Source: Rhizophagus irregularis (lineage: Eukaryota). Taken from it: a DNA stretch of 64,000 nt. The stretch is from the NCBI RefSeq assembly GCF_026210795.1, contig NC_089435.1, positions 4,650,001 through 4,714,000 of the forward strand, written 5' to 3'. This document shows, piece by piece, positions 20,243 through 49,387 of the stretch. A program made the position numbers and the translations under genes. Under the pieces are notes generated by a model. The model was not told the DNA's origin. It did not search any database and saw nothing but the letters and a program-made list of their open reading frames with translations. The stretch's first letter is position 1. Every line of letters begins with the position of its first letter.

Positions 20243-20711
20243 GTTCTAATGGTATAAAATATATTAAAATCCAGAAATCCAATCACTAGATTAATTTCCA
20301 AAATTAAAAAAATATTAATGGTTTTTGTGTAATAACTCTGCCAATATTGATCCTAGGGAGACGATCTTACTACCATTCGATTCATCTTAATGTAACTAAT
20401 CTAATGGTATAAAATACATCAAAATCCAATCACTAGATCAATTTTCAAAATTAAAAAATATTAAATGGTTTTTAAGTAGTAACTCTGTTAATATTGATTA
20501 TAGAGAGATGAGCTTACCACCATTCGATTCGTCTTGATGGGCGATTCCAACGAGCTATTAATCATCTTTTTACAATCACTAAGTACTGAGAAATTTAGCA
20601 AAATGTTAAATGGCGCAGTAAACGTAAATCAAGAAATATAATAATGCCGATACTTAACATTTTGTTGAATAATTCATCAGCCAGTGATTGTAAAAGGATA
20701 AAACTCCCTTT

Positions 20712-21113
20712 TTTGGCAACAGTTTCTCAGGATTTCTGGATTTCTTGGATATCCTCTTCTATAATTCAGGATGGATCTTGGATCTCGCACTTGGATTTTC
20801 TGCGCCGCTTAACAGTTCAACTTCTTAGGATTTCTTTCTGATAACAGACTGGATTTTTGGATGTTAGATAATTGATTTATACTGGCCTTCAGGTAAAGTT
20901 GGAGTATGCGATTCTGTAATAGTCTAGTTTTCTTTGCTTTAATTTTATTTTAGTTTAGATTTCTTTACTTGTATGAGTTGTGAAGCTATTCTTTTTATTT
21001 TTTATTAGTTTATTTTCTTATTTTGTAATATTGTTCGATTTTTTGATTTTTGAAGTTAAAATATAAATAAAAGATAAAGTCATAAGACTGTTTGCACAGT
21101 AAAAGGATAAAAC
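20712..21113 (+). repeat. ~400-bp direct repeat, copy 1 (partner at 41186-41588)
   Basis: Colinear, highly similar sequence from TTTGGC.ACAGTTT to GACTGTTTGCACAGTAAAAGGATAAAAC. Confidence 0.92.
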
Positions 21114-21282
21114 TAAAAACTAAACTTTCTCCTATTGCCCTTACGACAGTATTTTGTTGGAAAAAATATTTTTATTTTTCTGGGGTTTTCTTTTCTTTTT
21201 TTATTTTTCCTTAGGCCTTTGGCCTTTGAAACTTGCCTAGAACTATTTTAATATTACTTTTACTTTATTTTTCTTTTTTTTT

Positions 21283-22200
21283 TTGAGAGCTTTCTCTTAT
21301 ATTATTTACTATTTTCTTTGGTCCATTTTCTTTATGGGACATCAGAAAGAAAAATTCTCTCGTTCCTGTTCCAAACAAAAAACTAGTAATCTAACCTCAC
21401 CTTCCTTTTTCCCTTCTATTGCCCATGATGAAAAATGGTGCAAACTTGCTGACAAGTTAATGGACTCTCAACTTGCTTATATCAAATTGCCCCTAGTTAA
21501 TAGGTGGCAAAGTGTTATTACTTATGAAAAAAATTTGAAGGATTATGAATCCTCATATATTCCCTTGTATCTTCCTGATAATAAAGTCCTCACTACTTAT
21601 CGTCTTGCGTTAGCAGACTCTTCTCGTTATCTTAAATTTTTTCATTTACGTGACCAAAAATATTTGAAATTTGTGGATTTTTGGCGTACCCCCTCTGAAA
21701 GATCAACATTGAAAGATTTCAGAAATTCTTTATTTTCAGAATTTATGCCTCCTACAGTTGTTCCTGCATTTATGCCTGATGATCATCAAGATGACTTTTC
21801 TGATATGACGCTAGATCCTGTCCTTCAATCTGTAATACAAAACCCTGCTTTTCAACAGATTTGGCCTATAGGACCAGATCCATATACTTTTGACTCTGAT
21901 GGTGAAATGGACGAATTTCTTCTCCCTGACTATCCTATTCAACTTATTCCAATTGATTATAAAAATAATGCTACTCAGTGTCACTCTTCTCGTCCATTGA
22001 ATTATGATGATGATGATAGTGATCTCTCTACTTATGTCCCTTCCACTTCAATTAGCGTTGCTCAACTAATGTCAGATACTGGGCTTTCTATTGCTACAGC
22101 TACTCGTCTTGTTGCTAAACTTCCTGCTTTACATGCTGCTGCTAAAGCTATATTTGCTCTACCCATTGTACCCCTTCTAGACAGATCAATTCTTTTATAG
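21283..22200 (+). CDS. Hypothetical protein in the repeat-delimited segment (likely start ATG 21334)
   Basis: 305-codon ORF in AT-rich DNA with a pyrimidine-rich coding strand. No recognisable domain. Confidence 0.5.
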   Translation: MRAFSYIIYYFLWSIFFMGHQKEKFSRSCSKQKTSNLTSPSFFPSIAHDEKWCKLADKLMDSQLAYIKLPLVNRWQSVITYEKNLKDYESSYIPLYLPDNKVLTTYRLALADSSRYLKFFHLRDQKYLKFVDFWRTPSERSTLKDFRNSLFSEFMPPTVVPAFMPDDHQDDFSDMTLDPVLQSVIQNPAFQQIWPIGPDPYTFDSDGEMDEFLLPDYPIQLIPIDYKNNATQCHSSRPLNYDDDDSDLSTYVPSTSISVAQLMSDTGLSIATATRLVAKLPALHAAAKAIFALPIVPLLDRSILL

Positions 22201-22524
22201 ATTTTGACAAACTTCTCTCAGTTTACGATGTTCCTCTTTTGCCATGTACTTTTGACGCATCTACGTTGAATGATGATTCTGAGTACGAACCGTATGATTC
22301 TGATGATGACTTGCTTTTCTCCTTTTCATCTTTCGATGACTCTTCTTTTATGAGTCCTCTCTTAAAATCTATAATCTATTGTTTCTTTTTCGATCACCTT
22401 TCCTCTATTTTGCTTTGATCTTGGTCCTTTGGTAGCAGTTTCTACTATAATGTTTTCAAATGATATTCCTGAATATAAACCCTTTTTTATCAGCTTCTTT
22501 TTTGATTTTTCAAAATTTGAACGT

Positions 22525-24159
22525 TGTAGCCATAGATACTGAAGTAATCGCATAATATGGAGGAATAATATGGAATAAAAGATCAAACGATAGAAAGTCA
22601 CATGATTGGATAAAATTAACTGGAAAGGATAAACTTTTAGGAGAAGGAATGATCTACATGATGTAATGTTTATTAAATGATTAACGGAGAACCAATAGAT
22701 CAAGTAGGAAGTTGATCGATGTGGCTTAGCAACCAGTTTATCAAGTTCAACAATAGGAACAATTAGGAGGAGTAATCATAAGCCACAAATGATAAATCAT
22801 ATAAAAAGGAAGGATAGCGAATTAAAGGAACAAAAAAATAGGAACATGTAAAATATTGATGAACTGCAGCCGCAGTAGAAGAATAGCTGACGAGACGCAG
22901 TAGAAAAGATAGCACAGCCACAAAAGATGGATTTTTACGATATAATATTTGAAAGATTATTTTATTTTAAAGAAAAGATAGCACAGCCACAAAAGATGGA
23001 TCTTTACGATATAATATTTGAAAGATTATTTTATTTTAAAGAAAAGATAGCACAGCCACAAAAGATGGATCTTTACGATATAATTAAGGTTGCTTGTCTA
23101 AACCTCTTCAAAATCCTACGATTAGTTTCGTCAAAATTTTACTATAGATTTATTATAGTTTCGGCAGAGTTTCGGCAGTTTCGGCATTTATAATAAGTTT
23201 TGGCAGTTTCGCCTTTCTCCAAAGTTTCGCCAGTTTTTTAATATAACTTTAATATAGTTTCGGCAGAATTTCGCTTTTCGGCAAAACGCCATCTTGCCTA
23301 AACCCCTAGGTTTCGGCAAGCAACCTTAGATATAATATTTGAAAGATTATCTTATTTTAAAGAAAAGATAGCACAGCCACAAAAGATGGATCTTTACGAT
23401 ATAATATTTGAAAGATTATTTTATTTTAAAGAAAAGATAGCACAGCCACAAAAGATGGATTATATCTTTACGACATAATATTTGAAAGATTATTTTGAAG
23501 AAAAGATAGCGTATTAAAATAGTATAATATATTAGAAAAGATAATATATAAATAGCATATAAGATAGCGCATAAAAGGGAACACATAACATAAAATATTA
23601 GAAAGAAATAAGAAGTAAGAAAAGAAAGAATAAGAAAGTTAGTTTAAATAGGAGCGGAATGGGAGGTGAATTCCACAGTCGTCAGATACGATGTAAAACT
23701 TTAAGTAAATTAGTTAGTTGTGAATTTTATGAAGAATAAATAAAATACCTTTTATATGAAAATTAATTGTTTCGATTGTTTTTGTTACTATTTTCTTATG
23801 ATGAAAAAGTAATTTTGTTCAATTAACTGTTAGTAAAGCGTAATGTTATTTTAAAGGTAATAGGTTCGCCCTAAACTTTATTGTAATGTTCGCTTAATTA
23901 ATTTTAATTGGATAAATTCATGGTGAATTTAATGTCATAGCAAGAATTATGAAATAAATAAAATATAAACTTTCATAAAGAGAACTATCGTAAATTTGAA
24001 AGAAGAGAAAGGATGAAATATCGCGGCGAGAGCTATCGCAATTTGAAAGTTAAGTAGTAATAAAACTAAACCAAGCAAGAATATTAATATTTCGTGGAGA
24101 ACGAATATACGTTAAAGCAGGGAAGCTTGTTTACCGCCGGGTGGCAGACGGGGATGACA
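22525..24159 (+). repeat. 5' LTR (1383 bp plus a 252-bp MITE insertion)
   Basis: TGTAGCC...TGACA, near-identical to 34508-35890. Contains 69-bp tandem repeats. Confidence 0.97.
23085..23328 (+). mobile_element. 244-bp hAT-type MITE, copy 2, present in the 5' LTR only
   Basis: Same TIR as copy 1. TSD GATATAAT. Confidence 0.95.
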
Positions 24160-24162
24160 ATT

Positions 24163-24178
24163 TGGTGCATGCTCCGAG
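24163..24178 (+). promoter_or_regulatory. Primer-binding site, probably for tRNA-Gly
   Basis: TGGTGCATGCTCCGAG lies 3 nt after the LTR. Its complement ...GCATGCACCA resembles a tRNA-Gly 3' end. Confidence 0.75.
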
Positions 24179-24729
24179 AAAGGAAATGTTGACTTTGCGT
24201 CGACATTTTGACTATCTTCTTATAGTCAAGTACCTATGCGGTATTAAGAAGGAATCGGTCAACAACTAAGTGAATTGATCACTCGCGAAGGAAAAGATCG
24301 TTCTGATCATGGTACCGACGTGGTATTCCGAAGAATCTGAACTCAGAAAAAGAGGTGTTAGAATTAAAATATAATATTGGGAAAAAAGGTTGTAAGTACC
24401 TGAAAAACTTTAAAATGGGAACGGGCGAAATAGCGATATTGTACACCTACCTTAGGAATTATAAAAAGAAGGATGCGGTGATATGATGGAATATAATGAA
24501 CTCGTTTCAAAGTAATAGATTTGTTACAAGAATATCCGGAAAAGTATTGTAGTAAGTCACAAAAGTTGTCGTCTTTAAAGTTTTTGCGCTAATAATTGTA
24601 AAACCAAGAAATTAAGGAAGCCCTCGTAAGATGTTGTATTCTGGGAGGGGCACCATTGTATTTTGCAGATGCCAGAAGTTCCTGGGGATACAATGTTGTA
24701 ACGAAAAGCTGACGAGTAAACTATAAACT

Positions 24730-24824
24730 CAAGGGTTACGTGGGAACCTGTTACCAAAACACAAGGGTTGCATGGGAACCTATTTAAAACACAAGGGTTA
24801 CGTGGGAACCTATTACAAAAACAC
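24730..24824 (+). repeat. Three ~30-bp tandem repeats in the retroelement leader
   Basis: Unit CAAGGGTTACGTGGGAACCT.TT..AAAACA. Confidence 0.85.
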
Positions 24825-25190
24825 CGGCTGTGAATATAACTTCTTCAGATGGGAATCGAAATAATTGGACTCAGACGTGAGTGGAACATCTCCCTACTGA
24901 AAGCATTTTGAAAATGCGTAATTGAATTCACAAGGCAAAAAGAGAAACTATCATCGTGAGTATAACTTCTTCAGATAAAACTGAAAGCATTTAGGAAAAT
25001 GCGCAATTGAACTCACGAAAAGACGATGAACGTTATGGAATAATGCGAAATTTAGGAATATTTGCTGGTCAAATGATGAAATGTGAGTAACAAACCTTGA
25101 AACTACTATACTTCATTGGGAAGGTAAAGGCAAGCCAAGTATAGGTTATTAAATTGTAAAAGATAATAAATAAGAAGAAACACCGTTAAA

Positions 25191-25310
25191 TAAGTATAAA
25201 TGCGTGTGTCGCATAAGTATAAATGCGTGTGTCGCATAAGTATAGATGCGTGTGTCGCATAAGTGAAGATGCGTGTGTCGCATAAAGTATAATATGTTGT
25301 GTGTCGACAT
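25191..25310 (+). repeat. 23-bp tandem repeat, four copies plus one degenerate
   Basis: Unit TAAGTATAAATGCGTGTGTCGCA. Confidence 0.9.
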
Positions 25311-25957
25311 AATGGTTATAATAAGAGTTAGTACAAGATTAAACAAAGAAGATATTTTGCGTAATATTAAATATATAGATGTAAAGATTACATATATAAT
25401 GAAAAAGAACTAAAAATTCACGAACTTTAGAAGTTATGAGAATTTTGAAGTTCGTGAAATGCGAAAATTATAAATTTTGATGATAAAAGAAAATTTTGAG
25501 GCGCAGTAAAAACTTAGAAAATTTTTGAAATTTTTAGAATGCGCAGTAAAAACCTCCGCAGTCTGAGGAGATTGTGGACTTAGAATAATTTTTGAAATTT
25601 TAGGGCGCAGCAAAAATTAATGGTGAAATATGGCGCAGTAAATATATATATGAAGTTATGAAAGATAAAAATAGCAGAAGAAACTTGTGAAAATCAAAAA
25701 AAAAAAAGAGGATTTAAAGATTGAAAGATTAACATAAGAATATTATGAATAAGTAAAAGATTTAGAAAAAATAAGTTGTTAAATGAATATTCATAATGAA
25801 AGAAAGATTATACATTCAATATAGGTAATAGGAAAGGACAATATAGTAAAGGATGGTTAGAAGATCAAAATAGAAGCGATAAAAATGATATATAAGAGAG
25901 CGAAATTTCAATTTGAATTCTGGATGAATATTTATAATAATTTAATTAGAGTATACG

Positions 25958-28378
25958 ATGGAATGGTATTATCAATGGGAAAGTGAATATAGGACACATA
26001 AAGAAGAACATGAGTTAAGAACAGGAGAATTAGATGAATGTTTAAATTGTGAATTATGTCATCCAATAGTAGATGAACCAATAGTATTCAAGAAATTTTG
26101 GGACGCATTATTTAAGTTCGAAGATACAATAATAATATATAATAATGTAACGATCAAGGGAGTAATAGATTTATTAAGTATGAATAATTAGGAAAGAGAA
26201 GATACAATACATAAAGGAAAATGTAGGGACATAATGGATAGAATAACAGAATCAATAAGATATAGAATACAACCAAAAATGAAAGAAAAAGGATTACGAA
26301 CAATTATATTAGTAATTGTAAGAGATTGTATTGAAGGAGATTTAGAGAATGAAGTATTTGATAGATTAATTGGAAATCCTGAATTAATAGAACACAAATA
26401 TATTTTGGAAGATTGGGATGTTGAAAGAAGGTTTAAAAAATTTTGGCAATGGTACAAGATCACATCGAAAGAAGTTAAACCATTACGAGTAAAGATGGGA
26501 GCAATAAAGACATTCAGGGAATTACTTTATGAAGAAGAAGGAATAGCTACGAATGAGGAGAAAGTAAAAGAATTAATGTCCAATATGGAATATGGGAATA
26601 TAGACATAGAAAATGTTCACGAATATCACAGGAATATGGTACAAAAGATAATAAGAATATTTATAGATACTAGGGGCTTTACAAAAGAACCAGAAGATTC
26701 AGAAAGTGAAGATAGCTTAGAAAGTTATGAAATGAAAAAGAATTTTAATGGGAGTTTATATCTTAGATTTGAAAGATTCAGGTACTGGTGGAATGACAAA
26801 TATGAAGGTAAACGAATACATACATATCATGAAAATGATTCATTAGGATGGTTCGAGAAGATGTTATCTGAAGGAGAGAATTTGCAAAAAGATACTGTAA
26901 AGAAACTGACAGATAGTATGACATTTAAGGATAGCGAAGATATGTATGAAAAAGATCCTATTATAACAAGAATAGATGATGGAGTAATAGAATGGATTGT
27001 AACGGATTTAAAAGTAGTGATGGAAAGAACACAAAAATTTAAGTTAGTGGAGATAGAGCAAGGGGAAGATAATGAAATATATGATTCTGAAGAAGAAATA
27101 GAAATAATAGTAAAAGACAAAACGTGGGAGTTAAATGAAATAAGAATAGGATTAAGACAACTGATAGTGGATCCGAAAGAAAAACTCATCAGGGAAATGA
27201 TGAAATTTGGAATAAAAGAAAAGATAGAAACGGGAGTACTGTTAACATATGATTTTATAAGATATTATATTTTTCAGGAAAGGAGATTCGATAAGATTGA
27301 GGACATAAAGGAATGGATAGATTTGAGTACAAAAATATGTGGTAGATGCAATAAACAGAAATTAGATTATGTGATATCAGAAGAAGATGGCAGATGTGAA
27401 GAATGTAACCAGGAAATACAGGAAGATGAACAAGATGAATTAACAGAATTAAAAAACAACTTAGAAAAGTTAGGATACAAAATAGATGTATCGGAAATTC
27501 AAAGAATAAAGAATTTTGGAGTTAATAATCGAATAATAGTAACAGAAGAATTCATAGAAAGGTATATAAGAATGATAGAATTAGAAGATAGAGAGTTAAG
27601 AAAAGAGGTGCACAAATGGTTAAATGAGAACACAACTTGGTGCGAAAGATGTGAAATAAGATGGATGAATGATATGTTTAGATTAGGAGGAACTGTATGC
27701 AAAGATTGTGAAGAAGAAGATATTGATGAAATTGATGATCGGGTAAAAAGATTACAGAAGATTTTTGAAGATATTGGAGTAATGATGATTGAAGAGGAAT
27801 TGTTAAGATTAACTAGTATGGGATATACAGATGGAGAAATTTTAGATAAAGAATTTATCGAAATCTTTCAAGAAAATAAAAATGAGTCAGAAAAAGAACT
27901 AAAGAAAAAGTTAGATAAGTTGTTGAAAGAACAAGCAGGAGTAATAGAAAGTGAAGAAAGTGGTGAAAAGAGTGATAATGAAGAATCAGAAGAAGATAAT
28001 ACGGATAATTCAGAAAAGATTGGAGAAATATTAAGTCCAGAAGAATATGAAATATGGGATGGAAGTGATGAAGATTTTGAAGAAGAAGAGTCTGAAAATG
28101 AAATCGAAAATGTTATAAATACAGGAGGTTTTGGTCTGAATCAAAATTCAGATTCGAATAGTTCATTAAATTTTAAAAATTCTGACACAGAAAGTGAAAT
28201 ATCTGATTACAATTTACAAGAATTATTTCAAGAGAATATAGTAAATATGGCAAATGAAGCACAAATAAGAAGAATAATGGAGAATGCTATGGAATTGGCA
28301 CCAAATGCATTAGATAATGCGTTAGGAGCAGGACAGACTTTGGCGGATAGGATTCAGACTGCAGGAATGGGGGAATAG
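25958..28378 (+). CDS. Acidic CxxC-containing N-terminal extension (ORF0) running into the start of Gag; one in-frame stop
   Basis: ORFs 25958-26191 and 26234-28378 share a frame, split by TAG at 26189. Motifs CLNCELC, CGRC..CEEC and CERC..CKDC. Ends at a G-run frameshift just before the Gag core. Confidence 0.75.
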
Positions 28379-28383
28379 TAGGT

Positions 28384-29871
28384 ATGCCAACTTTTAGTGG
28401 AAAAGAGGATGAAGATATTAATGATTGGATTAGACAATTTGAGATAGCATTTACAGTAAGTGGACGACCAGAAGGAAATGTTGGAGGAGGTGTATGTAGA
28501 CAAAATAAGGCAAACATAGCTATAACTTGTTTAAGAGGAATTGCATTACAATGGTATAATGAGGAAAAAGAAAGGGTAGCAGCTAATTTAGTGAATTGGT
28601 GTGATCATAATGAGGACAGGAATTTAAAAGGAAGATTAATCGACAGATTTACTAGGAATGATGTTCAAAGAAGAAAGATGTCAGAATTAACAAGAATTAA
28701 ACAGGGAACAAATGAAAGTGTCGAAGAATATACTAGAAGATTTAGGTCAATATTAAGAGTTGCAACTAGAGGTCATGCGTTAGAGGATTTATATCAAGTG
28801 AATTATTTTATTCAAGGGTTAGACGCCATGATAGGTTATCATGTTAGGAAAAGTAATCCGACGAATCTGAATGATGCAGTTAACGAAGCAAAAAGTGAAG
28901 AGAAAGCGAGAGATGAGTTGATGATGAAAACAACAGGGTTGGATATGAAACGAGTAGGACAGGAGAAAAACATGGAAGAAATTTTGAAAGAAGAGACAAA
29001 TAAGTATAAAGGAATGAATCCAATTGCGAAAGAGTTACAAAATAAAGAAGTTAAAAGTGATGAATGGGATGAGTTAATTAATGGAATGAAAAGGTTGGAA
29101 GCACATGTAATGCAGAGAAATGAAGCATATGTAATCCAAAGGAATGGGAATGATAGGAGACCGATCGGAAATAATAATGTCCAAAGAAATAATATGAACT
29201 GGGATAGAATGACTTGTTATACATGTGGAAGAAAAGGACATACTTCTAGAGTTTGTAGGGAAGGTCAAAGAAGATCATATGGAGGAAATAATAAAGGGTC
29301 ATATAGCCAAAATAATCAAGTTAATTACTTTGATGAAGAATATTATGGTGGAGGATATAATGTGTATAATATGGAATATAATGATGAATATGATGGATAT
29401 AATGAGGGTGATGGATATGATAACTATAATAATAATGGATTTGATGGATACGAAGTGAATAACTATGAAGATGAGGAAAGATACGATATGTTTCCAGTAC
29501 CACCTAGAAAGAGTGAAAGAAATAAAGACAAGGTTATGAACGATGAAAGAGATAGAAGAAGAAATGCACAATGGCAAGGACAACAACAAAAAGCACAGGG
29601 GAATAATAAGAGAGGTTTTACGAAAGAACAATTACAGAAAGGATATGAAACTAGAAAGAATAATAATAGGTGTCACAATTGTGGACAACAAGGACATTTT
29701 GCTAGAGAATGTACAAACGAGAAAGTGAAGTTAAATCGAGATATACCAAACGTTGGAGATTTTGATCCATTCGAACAATTTGTAAATTCAAGTGTACCAA
29801 TTAATTGGGGACAAATGATGAATGAAAGACCAGAAGTAAGGAAGAAATTATTAAATGGTTTGAGATATTGA
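28384..29871 (+). CDS. gag: Gag (capsid-like domain plus two CCHC zinc knuckles)
   Basis: PTFSG..EDINDWI, IKQG.NESVEEY..RF, CYTCGRKGHTSRVC and CHNCGQQGHFAREC. Confidence 0.93.
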   Translation: MPTFSGKEDEDINDWIRQFEIAFTVSGRPEGNVGGGVCRQNKANIAITCLRGIALQWYNEEKERVAANLVNWCDHNEDRNLKGRLIDRFTRNDVQRRKMSELTRIKQGTNESVEEYTRRFRSILRVATRGHALEDLYQVNYFIQGLDAMIGYHVRKSNPTNLNDAVNEAKSEEKARDELMMKTTGLDMKRVGQEKNMEEILKEETNKYKGMNPIAKELQNKEVKSDEWDELINGMKRLEAHVMQRNEAYVIQRNGNDRRPIGNNNVQRNNMNWDRMTCYTCGRKGHTSRVCREGQRRSYGGNNKGSYSQNNQVNYFDEEYYGGGYNVYNMEYNDEYDGYNEGDGYDNYNNNGFDGYEVNNYEDEERYDMFPVPPRKSERNKDKVMNDERDRRRNAQWQGQQQKAQGNNKRGFTKEQLQKGYETRKNNNRCHNCGQQGHFARECTNEKVKLNRDIPNVGDFDPFEQFVNSSVPINWGQMMNERPEVRKKLLNGLRY

Positions 29872-29900
29872 CTACACTCGGGGGAATTGAAGAATATTAA

Positions 29901-30476
29901 TCAGAAAGAAGAAAATCACAAGCAACAAGATGTAATATAATAATTGAAGGAAAAATGATTAGAGCATCAGTTGATACAGGAGCAGGACCTTCAGTAATAA
30001 CGAATGAACTGAGAAAAGAATTAAATATACCAATAACGAGGAAAAGTAATGTCGTATTAACAATAGCAGATGGAAATAACATAGCTTCATTAGGAAGAGT
30101 GGAAATTAGAATAGAAATTGATGAAAATTTAGAAATACCTTTAGAGTTCGAAGTAATTGACTCGAGAAGAAAAGATTTGATATTAGGAACTGATTTATTA
30201 AGATATGGGATAATAAATATGAAAGAAGGTCTGTTAACAATAGAATGGGATAATGGAATATATGAAATACCAATTGATTTTAGAGGAAAGAAAAATGTTG
30301 AATTTGAGGAGTCAGAGAATAGGGGTGAATTTAATGAAGATCCAAAGAATATAGATGATATAGATGGCAATTCTAGTGAAGAGTCAGAGGGTGAAGATGA
30401 ATATGAGGAGATGGAAAAAGAAGAGTTGTTGTCGATTGTAAAAACTGATAGAGAAAAGAGAGATGAGGAAAAATGA
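29901..30476 (+). CDS. Retroviral-type aspartic protease
   Basis: Active site ASVDTGA, flap IADG, and LILGTD. Confidence 0.92.
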   Translation, partial: SERRKSQATRCNIIIEGKMIRASVDTGAGPSVITNELRKELNIPITRKSNVVLTIADGNNIASLGRVEIRIEIDENLEIPLEFEVIDSRRKDLILGTDLLRYGIINMKEGLLTIEWDNGIYEIPIDFRGKKNVEFEESENRGEFNEDPKNIDDIDGNSSEESEGEDEYEEMEKEELLSIVKTDREKRDEEK

Positions 30477-32806: not shown

Positions 32807-32821
32807 AATTATATTTTCAAA

Positions 32822-33163: not shown

Positions 33164-33289
33164 AAAATATATATGGAACAGTTATCACGACGCTTTATTT
33201 TTACAATACCTTAATTTTTACAACACTTCAACCCTTTACAACATTTCAACCTTTTACAACACTTTAGCTTTTAGAATTACAACATAGAC

Positions 33290-34477
33290 ATGGAAGAGGA
33301 AGAATATAATAAGATAGCGAGAAATATCAACAATGAACGGGAATATGAAATTATAGGAGGATTAATTTACAAAATAAAAGATGGGAAAAGACTAAGAGTG
33401 ATAAGAAAATACGAATTTGAAGGATTAATGTACATAGCTCACGATCATGAATTATCAGGACATTTTGGAATAGATGCAACGTATAATAGGATCAAAGATA
33501 AATATTATTGGAAAGGAATGAGAAAAGATGTGGAAGCTTATGTCAAATCATGTAATAATTGTCAGAGAAGAGGGAAACCAATAGGAAAACATGAACTGAA
33601 TGTAATCAAAGTTATAGAACCATTTTATCAAATTGGGATTGATGTAGTGGGACCATTACCAGTAACAAAGAGAAATAATAGATATATAGTTACAGCGATG
33701 GATTATTTTACAAAATGGCCTGAAGCAAAGGCATTGGAAACAGCAGATGCTAAGGAAATTGCAAGATTTATTTATGAAGATATAATATGTAGGCATGGAT
33801 GTCCAAAGAAGATATTGAGTGATAGAGGAAGTCATTTCAATAATAAATTAGTGAAATCATTAATGGAGGAATTTCAGATAAAACATAACTTTTCGACGCC
33901 TTATCATCCAAAAACTAATGGGTTAATAGAAAGATTTAATAAGACATTATGTGAATCATTAGCAAAGCTAAGTAATATCGAAGATTGGGATTTGAAAGTA
34001 CCAGGAGTATTGTTCGCGTATCGAACTAAAAGGAATGATTCAACGAAAATGGAACCAGGATATTTAATATATGGGAGACAAATGAAGACATTATTAGATT
34101 TAGAAGATAAGGAAATTACCATGGCAGAGAGAGTTAATGAGTTGATCGAAGGATTACCAAACATTAGGAATCAAGCTAAAGAAAATGTCAGGAAATCTCA
34201 GGAAAAACAAAAATCGTACCATGATAAAAAGAATAGAATAAAGCAGAAATTACAAATCAAAGATAAAGTACTATATTATGACGTAGCAAAAGAGAAACAA
34301 TGGTCTGAAAAGTTAGAAGAAAAATGGAAAGGACCTTATTATGTACATGAGATAATTTCTAAAGGATCATACAGAATTAAAACTATGGAAGGGAAGATAT
34401 TGAAAACACCAGTAAATGGTGAATTACTGAAAGAATATATTGATAGGACAAATTTTGAAGTAATAGTTCGAATTTGA
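33290..34477 (+). CDS. Integrase (HHCC, DDE, GPY/F) in a stand-alone ORF
   Basis: H..GHFG..CNNCQR, IGIDVVGP, SDRGSHF, YHPKTNGLIERFN and WKGPY. No chromodomain. Confidence 0.95.
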   Translation: MEEEEYNKIARNINNEREYEIIGGLIYKIKDGKRLRVIRKYEFEGLMYIAHDHELSGHFGIDATYNRIKDKYYWKGMRKDVEAYVKSCNNCQRRGKPIGKHELNVIKVIEPFYQIGIDVVGPLPVTKRNNRYIVTAMDYFTKWPEAKALETADAKEIARFIYEDIICRHGCPKKILSDRGSHFNNKLVKSLMEEFQIKHNFSTPYHPKTNGLIERFNKTLCESLAKLSNIEDWDLKVPGVLFAYRTKRNDSTKMEPGYLIYGRQMKTLLDLEDKEITMAERVNELIEGLPNIRNQAKENVRKSQEKQKSYHDKKNRIKQKLQIKDKVLYYDVAKEKQWSEKLEEKWKGPYYVHEIISKGSYRIKTMEGKILKTPVNGELLKEYIDRTNFEVIVRI

Positions 34478-34493
34478 TGGGACTCAAATTTTA

Positions 34494-34506
34494 GGTGGGG
34501 GGCAAA
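34494..34506 (+). promoter_or_regulatory. Polypurine tract
   Basis: AGGTGGGGGCAAA immediately before the 3' LTR. Confidence 0.65.
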
Positions 34507-34507
34507 C

Positions 34508-35890
34508 TGTAGCCATAGATACTGAAGTAATCGCATAATATGGAGGAATAATATGGAATAAAAGATCAAACGATAGAAAGTCACATGATTGGATAAAATT
34601 AACCGGAAAGGATAAACTTTTAGGAGAAGGAATGATCTACATGATGTAATGTTTATTAAATGATTAACGGAGAACCAATAGATCAAGTAGGGAGTTGATC
34701 GATGTGGTTTAGCAACCAGTTTATCAAGTTCAACAATAGGAACAATTAGGAGGAGTAATCATAAGCCACAAATGATAAATCATATAAAAAGGAAGGATAG
34801 CAAATTAAAGGAACAAAAAAATAGGAACATGTAAAATATTGATGAACTGCAGCCGCAGTAGAAGAATAGCTAACGAGACGCAGTAGAAAAGATAGCACAG
34901 CCACAAAAGATGGATCTTTACGATATAATATTTGAAAGATTATTTTATTTTAAAGAAAAGATAGCACAGCCACAAAAGATGGATCTTTACGATATAATAT
35001 TTGAAAGATTATTTTATTTTAAAGAAAAGATAGCACAGCCACAAAAGATGGATCTTTACGATATAATATTTGAAAGATTATCTTATTTTAAAGAAAAGAT
35101 AGCACAGCCACAAAAGATGGATCTTTACGATATAATATTTGAAAGATTATTTTATTTTAAAGAAAAGATAGCACAGCCACAAAAGATGGATTATATCTTT
35201 ACGACATAATATTTGAAAGATTATTTTGAAGAAAAGATAGCGTATTAAAATAGTATAACATATTAGAAAAGATAATATATAAATAGCATATAAGATAGCG
35301 CATAAAAGGGAACACATAACATAAAATATTAGAAAGAAATAAGAAGTAAGAAAAGAAAGAATAAGAAAGTTGGTTTAAATAGGAGCGGAATGGGAGGTGA
35401 ATTCCACAGTCGTCAGATACGATGTAAAACTTTAAGTAAATTAGTTAGTTGTGAATTTTATGAAGAATAAATAAAATACCTTTTATATGAAAATTAATTG
35501 TTTCGATTGTTTTTGTTACTATTTTCTTATGATGAAAAAGTAATTTTGTTCAATTAACTGTTAGTAAAGCGTAATGTTATTTTAAAGGTAATAGGTTCGC
35601 CCTAAACTTTATTGTAATGTTCGCTTAATTAATTTTAATTGGATAAATTCATGGTGAATTTAATGTCATAGCAAGAATTATGAAATGAATAAAATATAAA
35701 CTTTCGTAAAGAGAACTATCGTAAATTTGAAAGAAGAGAAAGGATGAAATATCGTGGCGAGAGCTATCGCAATTTGAAAGTTAAGTAGTAATAAAACTAA
35801 ACCAAGCAAGAATATTAATGTTTCGTGGAGAACGAATATACGTTAAAGCAGGGAAGCTTGTTTACCGCCGGGTGGCAGACGGGGGTGACA
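34508..35890 (+). repeat. 3' LTR (1383 bp)
   Basis: TGTAGCC...TGACA, with just over four copies of a 69-bp unit at ~34885-35240. Confidence 0.97.
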
Positions 35891-37320
35891 ACGTCATTAT
35901 AAATGGAAAATTTATCGTTCCTCTCTTCTTCCTGTCATGATATTTATCAGTTGGATATTTCTCACCTGTTTTCTTTGGTTTCGGCTTCACTTAAGAATTA
36001 TGGATAGTCTTCTTAAACTGACCTTTTTTTGTTCGATTAATAGGTTTATTAACCTATTTCCTTCTTGGCCTGGTTAGATTACTTTTTTTTTTTAATTTTG
36101 TTTGTTTGGGTCATTTGTTTGATTTGTAGTTGTGTAATTATTTAAGGCGTGTGGTATTTCTTAGTTTGCCATCCCCTTCTATATGATCTATAGTTTTATT
36201 TTATAATTCTCCCTTCTTTATTATTTTGCTTTATTTACAACTATTTTATTTTCTTTTTGCTTTTCTTCGTTAAGAATTTTCTGTAGGTAATATTTTTCTG
36301 GTTTTTCTAACCTTTTTGTAGCTTTTGCTTTTATTACCTTTTATTGGTTTTGTTAGTTTCAGTTTCTTTTTATAAGAAACTATTTAGTCACCTCACAGTG
36401 ATTTTATATTAATCTGGAGGATGTAGTGCCTTTATTAATGATTGTTTATAGTTTTTTTTAGAGCTTTAACCTTCGTTTTGTTTTGTACTATGAGATTATT
36501 CTTTATTTCTTTATTTGTTTTTTTTTTTGAATTTATATTTCTTTTTGATTTGTATATTTCTATAAAAATAAATAAAAAACGTCATAAAGACCATTTGCAT
36601 AACAGTAAAAGGATAAAATTAAAAACTAAAACAACTCTCTCCCGTTACTCTTATAACAATATTGTTACAAAAGAAATTTTGATATATCCATATATTGTTT
36701 ATACCTATAATTATTTCTTCTCTTTTTTTTCTCTTGCTCAGGCCGATGACCTCTTCCTACGACTTCTCAACCTTGAGTTGGGAAGAAGTTTTTTTTAAAC
36801 TTCACGAGGTTGAGGACCTCTGCGCTAAGTGTATTCTCAAACAAAAAACTTTATTAGCCCATTTCAACTCTCTTTCTGATAGCTCTTCCGCTAAATCATG
36901 TGTTTACTTGGCTTTTGGCCCTCTCCACCAACTAGACGACTCTCTTTTTGAACAAAAATGCCTTCTATACTTACGTTTAGACTTTCTTTCGTTTACTGCA
37001 AATTCAAAAAATGATATCACAATTCTCTCTGCTAACGATCATCCATCATATGATGATTCAGTAAATAATGATCCATCTCCTCTTCCATTAACTGTTTGGA
37101 CTTCTAACCATGAGGCTAATCCTAATGTTATCTTAGATTTATGCATCCCTTCTTTACAACGTACCAATCATTTTTCAGTTGCTATATTTGGCGCACTCCT
37201 AAATTTCTTTGTAAATACTGACGTCTTTTCTATGATTTCCCTGCATCTTTCAAATGTGCACAGAAATTTAAAAAGAATTTATTTTTTACACGTTTGGTCT
37301 TGTCCTCTTCTACAATACGT

Positions 37321-38629
37321 TGTCACCCCCGTCTGCCACCCGGCGGTAAACAAGGTTCCCTGCTTCTGTTATATGTGCTCTCAGCGAAACATTAACATTC
37401 TTGCTTGGTTTAGTTTTATTACTACTTAACTTTCAAATTGCGATAGCTCTCGCCACGATATTTCATCCATTATCTTCTTTCAAAATACGATAGTTCTCTT
37501 TACAAAAGTTTATATTTTATTCATTTCATAATTCTTGTTATGACATTAAATTCACCATGAATTTGTCCAATTAAAATTAATTAAGCGAACATTACAGTAA
37601 AGTTTAGGGCGAACCTATTACCTTTAAAATAACATTACGCTTTACTAACAATTAATTAAACAAAATTACTTTTTCATCATAAGAAAATAGTAACAAAAAC
37701 AATCGAAACAATTAATTTTCATATAAAGGGTATTTTATTTATTCTTCATAAAATTCACAATTAACTAATTTACTTAAAGTTTTACATCGTATCTGACGAC
37801 TGTGGAATTCACCTCCCATCCCGCTCCTATTTAAACCAACTTTCTTATTCTTTCTTTTCCTACTTCTTATTTCTTTCTAATATTTTATATGTTATCTTTT
37901 ATGCGCTATCTTATATGCTATTTTATATGTTATCTTTTCTAATATGTTATACTATTTTAATATGCTATCTTTTCTTTAAAATAATCTTTCGCATATTATG
38001 TCGTAAAGATATAATCCATCTTTTGTGGCTGTGCTATCTTTTCTTTAAAATGAAATAATCTTTCAAATATTATATCGTAAAGATCCATCTTTTGTGGCTG
38101 TGCTATCTTTTCTTTAAAATAAAATAATCTTTCAAATATTATATCGTAAAGATCCATCTTTTGTGGCTGTGCTATCTTTTCTTTAAAATAAAATAATCTT
38201 TCAAATATTATATCATAAAGATCCATCTTTTGTGGCTGTGCTATCTTTTCTACTGCGTCTCGTCAGCTATTCTTCTACTGCGGCTGCAGTTCATCAATAT
38301 TTTACATGTTCCTATTTTTTTTGTTCCTTTAATTCGCTATCCTTCCTTTTTATATGATTTATCATTTGTGGCTTATGATTACTCCTCCTAATTGTTCCTA
38401 TTGTTGAACTTGATAAACTTGTTGCTAAGCCACATCGATCAACTCCCCACTTGATCTATTGGTTCTCCGTTAATCATTTAATAAACATTACATCATGTAG
38501 ATCATTCCTTCTCCTAAAAGTTTATCCTTTCCGGTTAATTTCATCCAATCATGTGACTTTCTATCGTTTGATCTTTTATTCCATATTATTCCTCCATATT
38601 ATACGATTACTTCAGTATCTATGGCTACA
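37321..38629 (-). mobile_element. Solo LTR of the same Gypsy family, inverted
   Basis: Reverse complement of the LTR, 1309 bp, with one fewer 69-bp unit. TSD ACGT (37317-37320, 38630-38633). Confidence 0.96.
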
Positions 38630-38766
38630 ACGTACATCAGTTTGACTCTTGTCACGTCCTCTCCGATCTGTTGATTTATTTCAAAAAATTTTTTCTGATT
38701 CTTCTATAATTACTCCTCATATTTCAGTGACGTTTGACACTGCTGATAGTGATATTAGCGCTCTTC

Positions 38767-39210
38767 CAGGACCGGGAAAACCTATAATGGAGGTCACTGT
38801 AGTACCCGGCACACTAGTAAAATCCATTGAATTTTTTATATATACAATTTTTAATGAAGCCAAAATGTGTGGATTAAACTTATCTGTTTAAGTTTAGAGT
38901 TAAATGCATGATTTATACACTCAATTTAGATTTTTATATATTCTGTGTAACACAAAAAGGTGGTTCGCATAATTAGTAAATTTTTTAAAAAGTGGTTCGC
39001 GTTATTATAAAATTTTTTTCGGAAAATTTAATGATCTCAGTTAATATTGATATTAAAAGAATAATTTATGATTCATTTTATTTTTCAGACATTTCTGTAT
39101 GATTTGTTAGATTTTTAGTTTAATTACTTAAGAAAAATTTTTATTAATTTGGGCAAAACCATCATTTTACTATTGTCCGGTGACCTTTATTATAAGTTTT
39201 CCCAGTCCTG
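38767..39210. mobile_element. MITE with a 6-bp TSD
   Basis: 31-bp TIR CAGGAC.GGGAAAAC.TATAAT..AGGTCAC. TSD CTCTTC (38761-38766, 39211-39216). Confidence 0.9.
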
Positions 39211-41185
39211 CTCTTCCTCCAGTCTCTTCTCTGAATTATATACCTGTAGCTTCCTTACCTCCAGCTTCTGCTTCAGCCCTCTGTTATGATAATGTATAGT
39301 GATCTTCTTACACTTTCACGTTGCATACTGTTCTGAATGGATAGATACAACCTACTCAAAATGTTAGATCTAATCGCTTATATTTTATTCAACGAGGCAA
39401 TTGTTACTTCCTTTTAGATCCTACTTCTGATTTGAATAATTGTTATACAATTCATACCAATTCTCCTCTTCTTTCAACTGTTGATCCGTTTTAATTTATA
39501 TTAGACTGACCTTCACCTAATTTTAAATTTATTTTATCAAAATTTTTAACCTTTTTCTTTTACCGTTAGAATCGTATTTCTTTTCGTACTCAGCACAAAT
39601 ATTTTAATAGGTTACGTCAACTTTTGCTTATACAACGAGTAACTTCTCTTGCTCATTGATCGTCCTCTCATCAAAATAATAGACGAACTCATACTTTTAT
39701 TTAATTTCAATATCAGCAATCTTACTTTTACCTTAGCTTTTATTTTAGTTGCCCACATTGCAAGACTCCAGCTACTTATATTATGTTCCGTTTTTGTCAT
39801 GCTTGTCATATTTATGACAAGAAACTTATCTAAACTCCACCTTTCCCATCTTCTTCTCCTTTCACCTTACCTTGTAAGTGTATATCTGAAAGACAAAATG
39901 ATGGTTTTTATAAAACTGTGACTTTTCAACGCCTAGAAACTTTTTACCACAAATCTTATGCTTTCTATGATGTTCTTAAATACGATAATGGCTTGCTTAC
40001 AACTTGAACTCTTATCACATATTCTGCTCATGAATCCATATCTCATCCTACGAAGAAACAACTTGTCTGTCAACATTGTCATGAAGTTCTCCTCTCGGGC
40101 TGATTCAAATTTTACAGCATGTTGTTCATCCTGATTTCTTAAACTCTTCAATGTGGATGGCTACTAAGGAACGTGCTGTTGTCATTTCACCTTCCTTCTA
40201 CAATTTGACTATATCTACTACTGATTACTCAATTATCCTGAGTATACATAATTTAATCTTCTCGCACCTTGATATTTCCTTCTGTTTGGAAGAACGCTCC
40301 GCTCCCACCACTTCTCTATTGCGTCTGTATCCTCTCGCTTCATAAGTTTTATCTAAAAAGTGGTTTTAAATCCCTCCTCTATAGTTATATGCCACTTTAT
40401 AACTGACAAACCCAATTCTGGTTCCTTTATCAGTTTGAACTGCCCTATTATTATCAATCATAAAGATTTTAAAGCTTTTGGCTTTAATTGTTTCATTGTT
40501 GATATAGTCTGAAGAATACTTTCGAATAGTGCTTCCTTTTATGTACTTTCTTATAATTTCCTTTGGTTAATAATTTTCAAGCACAACACCTCTTCAGTAT
40601 CATGGAAACATCTCTGTAAAGCTATCTAATCTGTTATTATCAGATCAACCTTCTCTTCGACTTTTTTACATCTTTGAAATAGTAATACATGCTTTTCCTT
40701 CAAACTTGGCCGTGTCAAACTTTATGATACTTTATTGTTAATAGATATTTGCGCATCTTGGTTTGATTCACATATTTATCCTGCTCCTTCTGATTTTTAA
40801 ACACCGTGAAAATTACCTGCTAATTTTGTCTATTCTGCATTTTTATTGTGCTAATTGCACTGGCTTCTTATTAATTACTTTTACCCAATTTTCTTCCTTA
40901 TTACCTTTCTTTATGCTTATTTTAAAGCTCCTCTAATTCTCTTCTTTTGTATTTTATGAATATTAATTTTATCATTCATTCATTCTGTATCAGAAATTTA
41001 CATACAGCGCTATGATGATTGATGAATTTATCCTATTGAATTACAAAATTTTACATTTTATGTCAAACAGAATTTACACATAAAACTTTGGTTAAAAATA
41101 AATTTGGCTAACTCTGCTAGTGAACATCACGTAACTCTTTTACCGTTTCCTTTTCTACCATTTCTTCTCATCATCATAATTCTTC

Positions 41186-41588
41186 TTTGGCGACAGTTTT
41201 TCAGAATTCCTGGATTTCTTGGATATCCTCTTCTATAATCTGGGGTGAATCTTAGATCTTGCACTTGGATTTTCTACGCCGCTTAACAGTTTAAGCTCTT
41301 AGAGTCTCTTTCTAGTAACAGACTGGATTTTTGGATGTTGGATAGTTGACTCACACTGGCCTTCAGGTAAAGTTAGGATATGCGACTTTGTAATAGTTTA
41401 GTTTTTCTTTCTTTAATTTTATTTTAGTTTAGATTTCTTTACTTGTGTGAGTCGTGAAGCTATTCTTTTTATTTTTTTATTAGTTTATTTTCTTATTTTT
41501 GTAATATTGTTCGATCTTTAAATTTTTGAAGTTAAATATGAATAAAAGATAAAGTCATAAGACTGTTTGCACAGTAAAAGGATAAAAC
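41186..41588 (+). repeat. ~400-bp direct repeat, copy 2
   Basis: Matches 20712-21113. Confidence 0.92.
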
Positions 41589-42577
41589 CAAGGGCTGATA
41601 ACCTTAGTGCAGTCGTTAAAGTGGTACTTCCTCATATAGCCTAAGTAAAATAAGGTCACAGGTTCAATTCTGCCGATCACAAAAATAAAACGAATTTTAC
41701 TGCAAACGCTACAACTAATAGCGTGAAGGTACAGGGATTAGTGTAATTGGATTGTTTTATGGTGAATTAGTATGTATGGTTAGGCTGCACATTTCAACTA
41801 AGGTTATGGTGTTCTTCTAATGTTCTCTATGAGGCCATTAACATGTACGCAGTCCTGTCCTTGAGGTCACTACTATACCTTAGGGGGACTTCCTGTTCAG
41901 GTAGTCACTCCACGATACCACTTAAGGTCAGTAATAGCTAGATGGTCATCCACTCATCCTAGATGGTAAAGTTGAAATGCAATGTCTTGGTGGTAGTTTG
42001 ACCTTCTGTTAGGTCTTAGACTAACCAAGATATTTGTGCACAGAACAGGTAGCATGATTATAAGGTTCGATTTCCCATTTTTTGAGTCCTGGTTGGTAAT
42101 CCCTGATGATTGATACCCACTATAAGGCGTGATCCTGGACAGATGCCTGCTACTTCCTGTTTGAGTAGTCACTACAAAATATATCACTTGGGGTAAACAA
42201 CTGTACTATTGGTGCTGGATAATCGCAGGTTGTAATGACCTTTGAGTGAGACCTCGTACCTAAAATTGTGGTATGGAAGGGTACTAGATGGTTGATGTTA
42301 CCTGTCAAAAGTCCTCCATTAAAGTAAGTACTCTCCAAAGGTAGTAAAATAAATTGAGTACCAGTATCATGCAATGGGTATAGAATGAGTAGGTAGTGTA
42401 TTCCTAACTTCAGATCAGCTTTAAAAGTGGCACAATGGGGATATCTTCAAAAAGTGGTGCTGTTAACCTGAGAAATTAAGTACTCAGTATAATGTTACTC
42501 ATGAAGATGATAGGATACTAGTCTAAGGATACCTCAAAAAGAGGTAGAGAGAGGCTTGGCCATAAACACTAGTAAAA
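41589..42577 (+). mobile_element. Putative tRNA-headed SINE-like insertion (~1 kb)
   Basis: A-box-like TAGTGCAGTCG (41605), CTCATA loop (41631), B-box-like GGTTCAATTC (41661). Higher GC and non-coding. Flanked by the 14-bp direct repeat TAAAAGGATAAAAC. Confidence 0.6.
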
Positions 42578-43249
42578 TAAAAGGATAAAACTACCACCAT
42601 TCGATTCGCCTTAGTGAGACAATTCTAACAAGCTATGGTACATCATTGTACGATTATTAGATGTCAAGTTATTTAATATATTCTTTATATAACTGTGATT
42701 ATAAACGGTTTTTTTTAATATAAGATTTTTGAGGATAGGTGTGATAGTGACTATAGATAGATTATGACTATATAGGATAGATTTTAATAATAAAGTATTT
42801 TGAACATTCAACTGGTGTAACTATATAGTAGAATGTAACTATAACGGAAGTGACTATAGAGGGAGTTGACTGTACTTAAATACTTTATAATTATACAGTA
42901 TTATTATTAGTATTTATTTAAATTATAAATAAATATTACTAATTTGAAATTAAATTACACATAATAATCCACAATTTCATTATATCTAAAAGGAATCTGT
43001 AAAATATCATTATTTACCCAAAAAATATACCTGCTCGAAACTCATTTAACAATAAAATTCAAAAATTTGAAACTCAAAAACTTTAATTTTAATGAAAAAA
43101 TTGGTAAATCTGAAACTTTTCTAAACTATAATTAGTTTTGAAAAAACATAAAAACAGTTTAGGCAATTAAGTTTATTATAAAAAATAGTTTTAGATTGAA
43201 TTTTGATTAAACTAAAATTTTGAAAAAATAGTTTTGGCAAGGCTTCCTT

Positions 43250-48900: not shown

Positions 48901-49387
48901 AATTATTATTCCTACACACAGCCTTTTTAGTGACACATGGATTAATATTGTTAAAGATGTAGTTAAAAAAAGAGTTAAAATAGACAAAAATTATTTACAA
49001 GTACAACGTTTAAGCAAGATCCAAAATAGCATAGAAAAACGTTGCAACATTATATACTCAGATATTCCTAAATGGCTACTTTCCACACAAGATGTTGTTA
49101 AGGAGCACATTATTATTGATTGAGCAGTAATATCCAACGAGAATGAAAGTGTTAAACTAGCGCTTGATCCTAATACAATTAGAACCTATACAAAAGATAC
49201 TTTTGCAGGAATTTTACAAAAACACAATACTAAATCGATAGAGCAAGACATTTTCTGGAACAATATATATAGGCCAAAAGGTAAATTTACTGAATGTATA
49301 GCTAATTTAATGGATGAGATAATGTTAGAAGAATGGCAGCAAACACTTGAACAGGTGAACATAAACTCAGTGCCAGGTCCTTCAGGC

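What the first reader, a model, noticed from the sequence alone, without database searches (positions are those of the whole stretch)
20691..42592. Head-to-tail stack of segments all delimited by TAAAAGGATAAAAC(T)
Seen: the motif occurs at 20691, 21100, 36606 (one mismatch), 41575 and 42578. The outer two 15-mers are identical. Deleting everything between them restores the host repeat AGTGATTGTAAAAGGATAAAACTACCACCATTCGATTCG. Three segments end alike (GTCATAA(A)GAC..TTTGCA..CAG) and two begin alike (TAAAAACTAAA...CTCC). Segment 1 is a 400-bp copy of the 3' end of segment 3, and segment 4 has a tRNA-like head. Inference: serial target-primed insertions at one regenerated site by a sequence-specific non-LTR system that mobilises several non-autonomous passengers. 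An alternative is a composite element with non-canonical 400-bp terminal repeats.
Basis: partly seen in the sequence, partly recalled or inferred. Interest (0 to 1): 0.75.

Follow-up and report, generated by a model that had tools for sequence, protein, structure and literature searches.

The report
Fungal LINE stacks at repeat target
In a mycorrhizal fungus, four retroelement pieces sit head to tail at one spot of a common genomic repeat, each followed by the same short duplicated site, which likely marks a site-preferring LINE retrotransposon that also carries non-coding and enzyme-less passengers, a strategy described before in animals.

Summary
The five motifs are real. About 15 of the 22 kb are later insertions (a Gypsy element, its solo LTR, a MITE); the true stack is about 6.7 kb. 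The host is Rhizophagus irregularis or a close relative. Segment 1 encodes the last 42 residues of a multi-copy, apparently intact endonuclease-RT-RNase H LINE protein (90% identity), so it is a 5'-truncated LINE. Segment 3 joins an unrelated ORF to the same LINE end. Segment 2 is a sister non-autonomous element. Segment 4 is a high-copy non-coding family. The motif fills a 14-base slot of an interspersed palindromic host repeat. Contigs of other runs show nine further junction forms at this motif, with 5'-truncated copies and duplications of about 14-25 bases, as target-primed reverse transcription predicts. The shared LINE tail also abuts a second, unrelated repeat. The on-target fraction and an empty allele were not measured. 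Closest known: crocodilian Tx1-Mar/SINEU-3 and Xenopus Tx1L. My ten paper searches found no fungal report; the scan's index held no note on this DNA.

The parts
20562..20620 (.). Other arm of a host palindrome whose partner arm (20635-20704) contains the first motif
   Evidence: Local alignment score 58.5, reached by 0 of 1000 shuffles
20660..20690 (+). Left half of the host repeat (upstream of the insertion site)
   Evidence: Fits four other repeat copies in register at a 14-base distance from the core
20691..20705 (+). Target-site copy 1 (15 bases, TAAAAGGATAAAACT)
20706..21099 (+). Segment 1: 5'-truncated LINE end (last 42 codons of ORF2 at 20713-20838, T-rich 3' UTR, AATAAA 28 bases before the junction, no poly(A))
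   Evidence: 90% identity to the C-terminus of P0049
21100..21115 (+). Target-site copy 2 (16 bases if the following TA is counted)
21116..36605 (+). Segment 2: non-autonomous element of about 2.1 kb net, with a decayed ORF of no known family (from 21334), head like segment 3, tail like segment 1, no ORF2 remnant found
   Evidence: relatives read straight across the Gypsy site (P0007, P0022)
22525..35890 (+). Later insertion: full-length Ty3/Gypsy element, LTRs 22525-24159 and 34508-35890 (99% identical), ACGT duplicated
36606..36621 (+). Target-site copy 3 (one mismatch)
36622..41574 (+). Segment 3: non-autonomous element of about 3.2 kb net; decayed ORF of roughly 750 codons (36746-40848, no Pfam family), then the last ~60 codons of LINE ORF2 (41124-41312) and the LINE 3' UTR
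37321..38629 (-). Later insertion: solo LTR of the same Gypsy family, ACGT duplicated
38767..39210 (.). Later insertion: MITE with terminal inverted repeats, CTCTTC duplicated
41575..41588 (+). Target-site copy 4 (14 bases; 16 with one mismatch if the following CA is a changed TA)
   Evidence: tandem segment-4 joint with TA
41589..42577 (+). Segment 4: 989-base non-coding, high-copy SINE-like element; box-B-like words near 41662 and 42064; 3' word GCCATAAACAC (42559) 9 of 11 like the segment-2 tail word
   Evidence: tRNA head not detected
42578..42592 (+). Target-site copy 5
42592..42660 (+). Right half of the host repeat (TACCACCATTCGATTCG core), multi-copy
   Evidence: 15-17 of 17 identical to four other copies in the window; high summed contig depth in 3 of 3 contig runs
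19793..19822 (-). Window copy of a second repeat that follows the shared LINE tail in other loci
   Evidence: 29 of 30 identical to the RNA loose-end consensus

Best explanation
The stack was likely built by repeated target-primed reverse transcription at one site of an interspersed host repeat, driven in trans by an L1-like LINE whose ORF2 C-terminus and 3' UTR are present in segments 1 and 3. Shown: the motif is part of the host repeat; segments 1 and 3 end in the LINE's coding C-terminus; intact-looking endonuclease-RT-RNase H-CCHC proteins with that C-terminus exist in many copies in R. irregularis assemblies; the 3' junction is fixed while 5' ends and duplication lengths vary at other loci. 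Inferred: the AP-type endonuclease nicks the bottom strand at about G/T/AAAAGG (a TTTT/A-like junction), the RT grips a shared 3' word (GTCATAA(A)GAC, with a 9/11 look-alike in segment 4), second-strand cleavage falls 14-25 bases downstream, and every insertion leaves two copies of the site, so later LINE, ORF-only and SINE-like RNAs stack head to tail. Segment 3 is probably an internally deleted LINE that kept its 5' ORF, and segment 2 a sister family of the same build.
For: Motif counts and register in the host repeat. ORF2 match of segment 1 at 90% and of segment 3 at 76%. Domains PF03372, PF00078, PF00075; best PDB match human L1 ORF2p, E 7.5e-21; catalytic words present in 6 of 6 proteins checked for GDFN, TDH, FMDD, YTDGS and the CCHC motif. 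Cluster of 143 members, 40 read, 15 listed., three contig runs: 9 of at most 21 joints begin at a motif copy. They are LINE tail straight onto the host core (41573 to 42579), LINE tail onto segment 4 truncated at four places (41828, 42134, 42276, 42359), segment 4 onto full (41590) or truncated (41723, 41981) segment 4, and a short return of the LINE tail (41587 to 41533). Ten RNA reads run from the LINE tail through the motif, with a consensus resembling the host core (agreement 0.56). Gene models with segment 2 followed by segment 3 exist in isolates A1, A5 and B3. Consecutive accessions on one 161-kb contig alternate segment-3-type ORFs and a full ORF2.
Against: No DNA around an intact ORF2 was available, so the autonomous copies are tied to this target only through the shared 3' end. 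The tail also continues into a second repeat (43 RNA reads, 3 and 2 contigs in two runs) against 10 RNA reads and 20 contigs at the motif end; 401 loose ends were not shown, so the on-target share is unknown. Joint sides are short (25-55 bases where shown) and were laid at 85% likeness, where the tool warns of joints from other repeats. Joints shared by runs may be the same old locus. No empty allele of this locus was seen. Segment 4 shares only one 11-base word with the LINE tail (70 of 20000 shuffles, motif and place chosen after looking; a plain alignment of the last 40 bases was not significant, 941 of 2000). Segment 2 has no ORF2 remnant. The endonuclease has D where L1 has its catalytic E (L1 residue recalled).
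Confidence: 0.8

Rival explanations
1. Flank-guided homing: the endonuclease is only loosely specific, and read-through RNA carrying the downstream repeat base-pairs with the nicked DNA, so each donor copy homes to the repeat it already sits in.
For: One shared tail meets two unrelated repeats, and RNA reads run into both. The four bases ACAG between tail and motif are not in this locus's left flank, so they may be carried from a donor site. By motif reading the endonuclease hairpin has 7 residues between its anchors, against 9 for L1 and 11 for Tx1L/TRAS1 (passages of PMC1950540).
Against: Two ORF2 subfamilies exist with endonucleases only 76% identical, and the RNA reads show different sequences upstream of the shared tail, so one target per family explains the two flanks more simply. 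AATAAA lies 28-29 bases before the junction in three segments, which fits processing at the junction.
Confidence: 0.12
2. Weak preference only: an ordinary L1-type endonuclease cuts TTTT/A sites, and the repeat is hit often because it is abundant; arrays then grow by re-use or by unequal recombination between motif copies.
For: The site reads as TTTT/A on the bottom strand, close to the L1 consensus given in PMC1950540. The repeat is very abundant. The hidden loose ends may hold many other flanks.
Against: TTTT/A sites are everywhere in this AT-rich DNA, yet all four segments and nine joint forms use this one context. Truncations at many different points right after the motif need independent insertions, not recombination.
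Confidence: 0.06
3. One composite element with 400-bp terminal or split direct repeats (Ngaro/DIRS- or Crypton-like), or site-specific recombination at a 14-base core.
For: Segment 1 repeats the end of segment 3. Crypton and Ngaro elements with direct repeats occur in these fungi (passages of PMC13465315).
Against: The 400 bp are LINE coding and UTR sequence. No recombinase ORF was seen in the stack. Duplication lengths and 5' ends vary, and Crypton repeats are 4-6 bases.
Confidence: 0.02

Closest known systems
Tx1-Mar LINEs with SINEU-3 in crocodilian Mariner-N4_AMi (PMC4494074; passages and one section read)
   Same: An APE-type LINE and a dependent SINE prefer one site in an abundant non-autonomous repeat; tandem insertions sandwich a 16-base duplication; truncated copies show independent insertion.
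   Different: Here a fungus, an RNase H-bearing ORF2, no poly(A) tail, ORF-bearing passengers beside a 1-kb SINE-like one, and an unclassified palindromic repeat as target. The 90% on-target figure of SINEU-3 has no counterpart measured here.
Tx1L in Tx1D of Xenopus laevis (passages of PMC4494074, PMC1950540, PMC6719617)
   Same: Sequence-specific APE-type non-LTR element that inserts into another mobile repeat.
   Different: The paper describes the Tx1 clade as animal; clade placement here was not tested. The endonuclease hairpin looks shorter, not longer, than L1's by motif reading.
ORF1-bearing bipartite non-autonomous LINEs: HAL1, HeT-A, Ag-Sponge (passages of PMC5786205)
   Same: Segments 2 and 3 keep a 5' end, one ORF and a LINE-type 3' end but lack RT.
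   Different: Their ORFs match no Pfam family and not each other; that they are ORF1 of the LINE is inferred from gene order only.
LINE/L1-Tx1 and SINE families listed for R. irregularis (PMC11075540; one section, passages and the text-held supplement)
   Same: Same species; the LINE and segment 4 may be among the curated families.
   Different: No target preference or tandem stacking is mentioned in what I read ('tandem' 0 occurrences); the library sequences were not in the held supplement.

Membership tests
APE-type non-LTR retrotransposon (L1 group) | ORF2 with AP endonuclease and RT | tested here: met
   P0049 and P0067: PF03372 and PF00078 above cut-off; nearest solved relative human L1 ORF2p. 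Met for the partner, not for the window's own copies.
APE-type non-LTR retrotransposon (L1 group) | Fixed 3' end, variable 5' truncation, target duplication of variable length | tested here: met
   Segment 1 truncation; nine joint forms with duplications read as about 14-25 bases
APE-type non-LTR retrotransposon (L1 group) | Poly(A) or simple-repeat 3' tail | tested here: not met
   No tail at any of the four 3' junctions
Tx1 clade | RT phylogeny inside Tx1 | not testable with these tools
   No reference Tx1 sequences were returned by any search; the tree holds only 20 Rhizophagus proteins
Target-specific LINE (criterion in PMC4494074: one flank type in over 20% of copies) | Share of copies at the target | tested here: inconclusive
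   Repeated use shown, but 401 loose ends hidden and no genome held
tRNA-derived SINE (segment 4) | tRNA-derived head with A and B boxes | tested here: inconclusive
   Box-like words by eye; no ARAGORN or Rfam match. Resemblance to tRNA-Met is recalled, not tested.
tRNA-derived SINE (segment 4) | Non-coding, multi-copy, LINE-type insertions | tested here: met
   No ORF of 100 codons; thousands of contig pieces laid; truncated and tandem copies after the motif
tRNA-derived SINE (segment 4) | 3' tail shared with the partner LINE | tested here: inconclusive
   One 9-of-11 word only; 40-base alignment not significant
ORF1-bearing bipartite LINE (HAL1-like; segments 2, 3) | LINE 3' end without RT | tested here: met
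   Segment 3: ORF2 C-terminus plus UTR. Segment 2: only the last ~80 bases resemble it.
ORF1-bearing bipartite LINE (HAL1-like; segments 2, 3) | Retained ORF is the LINE's ORF1 | tested here: inconclusive
   A segment-3-type ORF has the accession just before a full ORF2 on one contig; no DNA seen; fold job did not finish
Tyrosine-recombinase elements (Ngaro, DIRS, Crypton) | YR gene and split or 4-6-base direct repeats | tested here: not met
   No YR hit among the ORFs scanned; repeats are 14-16 bases and variable

The most novel reading that the evidence does not exclude
A tail-less fungal L1-group LINE picks its target by RNA: the co-transcribed downstream repeat anneals to nicked DNA, so one protein scaffold serves several 'addresses', and any RNA bearing the short 3' word plus the address (LINE, ORF-only element, 1-kb SINE) is pasted into the same site. 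That would be a natural, reprogrammable site-specific retrotransposon with intact copies at hand.
Probability: 0.12. Interest if true: 0.85.

Novelty: new variant of a known kind. Interest (0 to 1): 0.52.

Why it matters
The target-specific APE-type LINEs in the papers I read are from animals, and the fungal review I read names Tad, L1 and CRE clades with only a poly(A) preference for Zorro3 (passages). A fungal L1-group family that stacks itself and three kinds of passenger into an interspersed repeat would explain part of the unclassified repeat fraction of R. irregularis (two-thirds of TEs unclassified, PMC11075540 abstract). It supplies intact-looking ORF2 copies in two subfamilies for testing how an AP endonuclease or its RNA sets target choice, which is of use for RNA-based gene insertion. 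It also shows that many 'hypothetical proteins' in these assemblies are passenger ORFs or gene models spliced across neighbouring elements (P0011).

Tried and rejected
No genome was held for the window. Pattern scans: viral contigs 0 and 0, prokaryote genomes 0, metagenome contigs 2 matches, both dropped as chance hits in unrelated coding DNA. ORF2 as query found no locus in viral or prokaryote contigs. Reads were laid only on 41528-42700; the left junction and the segment 1/2 and 2/3 junctions were not examined in other runs, which leaves the empty allele open. Of 24 runs listed I laid 4; no RNA holder was listed by index. ARAGORN and Rfam found nothing in segment 4; its head folds no better than shuffles (z -0.79). 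Segment 2 and 3 ORFs: no Pfam family above cut-off, no Atlas hit of 0.9 or more, no similarity to each other (probability 0.2%); of the 40 representative hits I scanned 11 against Pfam, none with a family. The fold job for the segment-3 ORF never finished. An ORF2 remnant in segment 2 was not found (DNA alignment 37 of 1000 shuffles, low complexity). The endonuclease domain alone found no retrotransposon structure. Helitron, hammerhead retrozyme and Penelope readings were dropped by eye and by the ORF2 match. The eight earlier findings listed concern Penelope-type elements in other genomes and were not used; searches returned nothing. Ten paper searches showed no description of this system; subscription papers, Repbase and the authors' TE library were not visible and may hold it.
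Full report
Observation. TAAAAGGATAAAAC occurs exactly at 20691, 21100, 41575 and 42578 and with one mismatch at 36606, all on the plus strand; base composition predicts about 0.006 exact matches. The outer copies share a fifteenth base. Segment 1 is 89.5% identical to the end of segment 3, almost all differences being transitions. The heads of segments 2 and 3 and the tails of segments 1 and 2 are alike beyond chance with the motif excluded (0 of 2000 shuffles each). In segments 1-3 an AATAAA ends 28, 29 and 28 bases before the junction and no poly(A) follows.

Segment 2 holds a full Gypsy element (22525-35890, LTRs 99% identical, ACGT duplicated). Segment 3 holds a reversed solo LTR of the same family, again in ACGT, and a MITE in CTCTTC. 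Relatives of the segment-2 protein read straight across the Gypsy site. Net lengths are 395, about 2120, about 3190 and 989 bases. The LTR pair is 99% identical while segments 1 and 3 are 89.5% identical, so the stack is probably much older than the Gypsy insertion.

Host and target. Eight of the nine relatives of the segment-2 protein are from Rhizophagus irregularis or unnamed metagenome sources, seven of them named R. irregularis. The flanks belong to an interspersed repeat with the core TACCACCATTCGATTCG, present in six look-alike copies in the window. In four plus-strand copies the left flank of the stack fits best at 14 bases before the core (alone in three, tied in one), the gap that the motif fills, and the motif matches those slots at 5-7 of 14 positions. 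The first motif also lies in one arm of a local palindrome (0 of 1000 shuffles). The motif is therefore a variant of the host repeat and not something the elements brought. The repeat family itself I could not name.

The autonomous partner. One frame of segment 1 gives 44 stop-free residues. Searching longer proteins gave 53 hits among 58 candidates, 52 of them named R. irregularis, including eight of 1585-1794 residues with an RT domain. P0049 has AP endonuclease, RT and RNase H domains and a CCHC motif; its nearest solved relative is human L1 ORF2p, ahead of R2. Segment 1 matches its last 42 residues at 90%, segment 3 its last 50 at 76%. The cluster has 143 members. Twenty near-full-length proteins fall into two subfamilies with endonucleases about 76%, RT about 90% and RNase H about 55% identical; by the C-terminal residues segments 1 and 3 resemble the P0082 type. 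I saw no DNA around these ORF2s, so their own flanks are untested.

Passengers. The rest of segment 3 encodes a decayed ORF of about 750 codons with relatives at about 55-65% identity. Gene models elsewhere join this ORF to the ORF2 C-terminus at different points (P0040, P0047), and a R. diaphanus protein does so with a diverged end (P0130). On one 161-kb contig the accessions ending 415, 417, 418, 420 and 421 alternate pieces of this ORF with a full ORF2. That suggests another array and hints that the ORF is the LINE's upstream ORF; both readings rest on accession order only. Segment 2 has its own ORF family at several loci, unrelated to that of segment 3, with no ORF2 remnant. Gene models spliced from segment 2 into segment 3 exist in isolates A1, A5 and B3, so that order is shared. 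Segment 4 is non-coding and abundant: 4114, 1011 and 384 contig pieces were laid on the stretch that holds it (the stretch also includes the LINE tail and the host repeat). Its tRNA-like head was not confirmed by tools. Its 3' end carries GCCATAAACAC, 9 of 11 like the segment-2 tail word (70 of 20000 shuffles, chosen after looking).

Other loci. Laying three contig runs and one RNA run on 41528-42700 listed 15 joints with 6 more hidden; nine forms start at a motif copy, five in the joint table and four seen only in the table of letters between. The LINE tail sits directly on the host core, on segment 4 truncated at four different places, or returns on itself. Segment 4 sits on full-length or truncated segment 4. 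Reading the letters between against the target gives duplications of about 14, 15, 16, 17, 19 and up to 25 bases, some blurred by microhomology. The other ten shown joints lie inside segment 4 and reflect diverged copies. This pattern, a fixed 3' end with ragged 5' ends, is what target-primed reverse transcription gives. Limits: sides are 25-55 bases where shown, likeness was set at 85%, shared joints may be one old locus, and 401 loose ends were hidden.

A second flank. Forty-three RNA reads, and a few contigs in two runs, leave the tail four bases earlier and continue into a sequence 29 of 30 identical to another repeat at 19793-19822 of this window. Forty-nine RNA reads differ upstream of 41541, so these may be a sister family that shares only the last 30 bases; the table does not link the two ends. 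This is the main reason I call the specificity a strong preference per family and not proven exclusivity, and it keeps the flank-guided reading alive.

Mechanism. Most likely (0.8): the LINE's endonuclease nicks at the start of the motif, the RT copies an RNA held by its 3' word, second-strand cleavage 14-25 bases on duplicates the site, and the regenerated site takes the next insertion. The nick position is uncertain by one or two bases, since two joints show GG in place of GT there. The order of the four insertions cannot be read from the junctions. Nicking, trans-mobilisation of segments 2 and 4, and the role of the 3' word are inferred.

Known relatives. Crocodilian Tx1-Mar with SINEU-3 is the same strategy, down to tandem copies sandwiching a duplication (PMC4494074, section and passages); Tx1L in Tx1D is the classic case (passages). 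HAL1, HeT-A and Ag-Sponge are the precedent for ORF-bearing passengers (PMC5786205, passages). It works like these systems; membership of the Tx1 clade was not testable. The R. irregularis TE papers list L1-Tx1 and SINE families, without target preference in the parts I read (PMC11075540: section, passages, supplement text; PMC11952901: passages). Other papers were seen as search listings only. Supplements and libraries I could not see may already contain these consensus sequences.

Verdict. A real, well-supported feature and a new variant of a known kind: target-preferring L1-group retrotransposition with several passengers, in a fungus, without a poly(A) tail. Interest 0.52. The RNA-guided reading is unlikely (0.12) but would be of high interest.

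Noticed in passing
window 31970-32593 (+): The Gypsy pol carries a P-loop domain between RNase H and integrase, with weak thymidylate-kinase and NTPase matches below Pfam cut-offs.
   Followed up: partly
window 22521-22524, 35891-35894, 37317-37320, 38630-38633: Both insertions of this Gypsy family duplicate the same four bases, ACGT, and both lie inside the stack, in opposite orientations; this hints at a target preference of the Gypsy itself.
   Followed up: partly
window 41988-41999 versus 42588-42599: Segment 4 holds a 12-of-12 antisense match to the target around the end of the duplication, but nearly all other copies have A at 41989, which shortens it to 10; probably chance.
   Followed up: partly
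window 17149-17398, 23080-23329, 44584-44833, 49387-49634: A 250-base MITE family in four copies at 94-97% identity, one inside the 5' LTR and one inside a decayed LINE.
   Followed up: no
window about 47500-54105 (+): A decayed endonuclease-RT-RNase H LINE of another family (29% identity to P0049 in RT) that ends in an A-run and has no motif at its end.
   Followed up: partly
window 45515-45863: A palindrome with 83-base arms encloses two outward-facing copies of the host repeat core, suggesting the target repeat is a module of fold-back or MITE-like elements.
   Followed up: no
window 41875: Eighteen RNA reads leave segment 4 here into one other sequence; possibly a shorter family or a third flank.
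   Followed up: no
window 41644, 42343, 42571: AGTAAAATAA occurs three times in segment 4, including at its 3' end, with other short internal repeats; it may be a composite of modules.
   Followed up: no
window 2777-4615 (+) and 15532-19299 (+): ORFs that by eye resemble a hAT transposase and another DNA-transposon protein; the one piece scanned (17549-18325) had no Pfam match.
   Followed up: no
window 26192-28378 (+): The Gypsy element has an extra 728-codon acidic ORF upstream of gag with no Pfam match.
   Followed up: no
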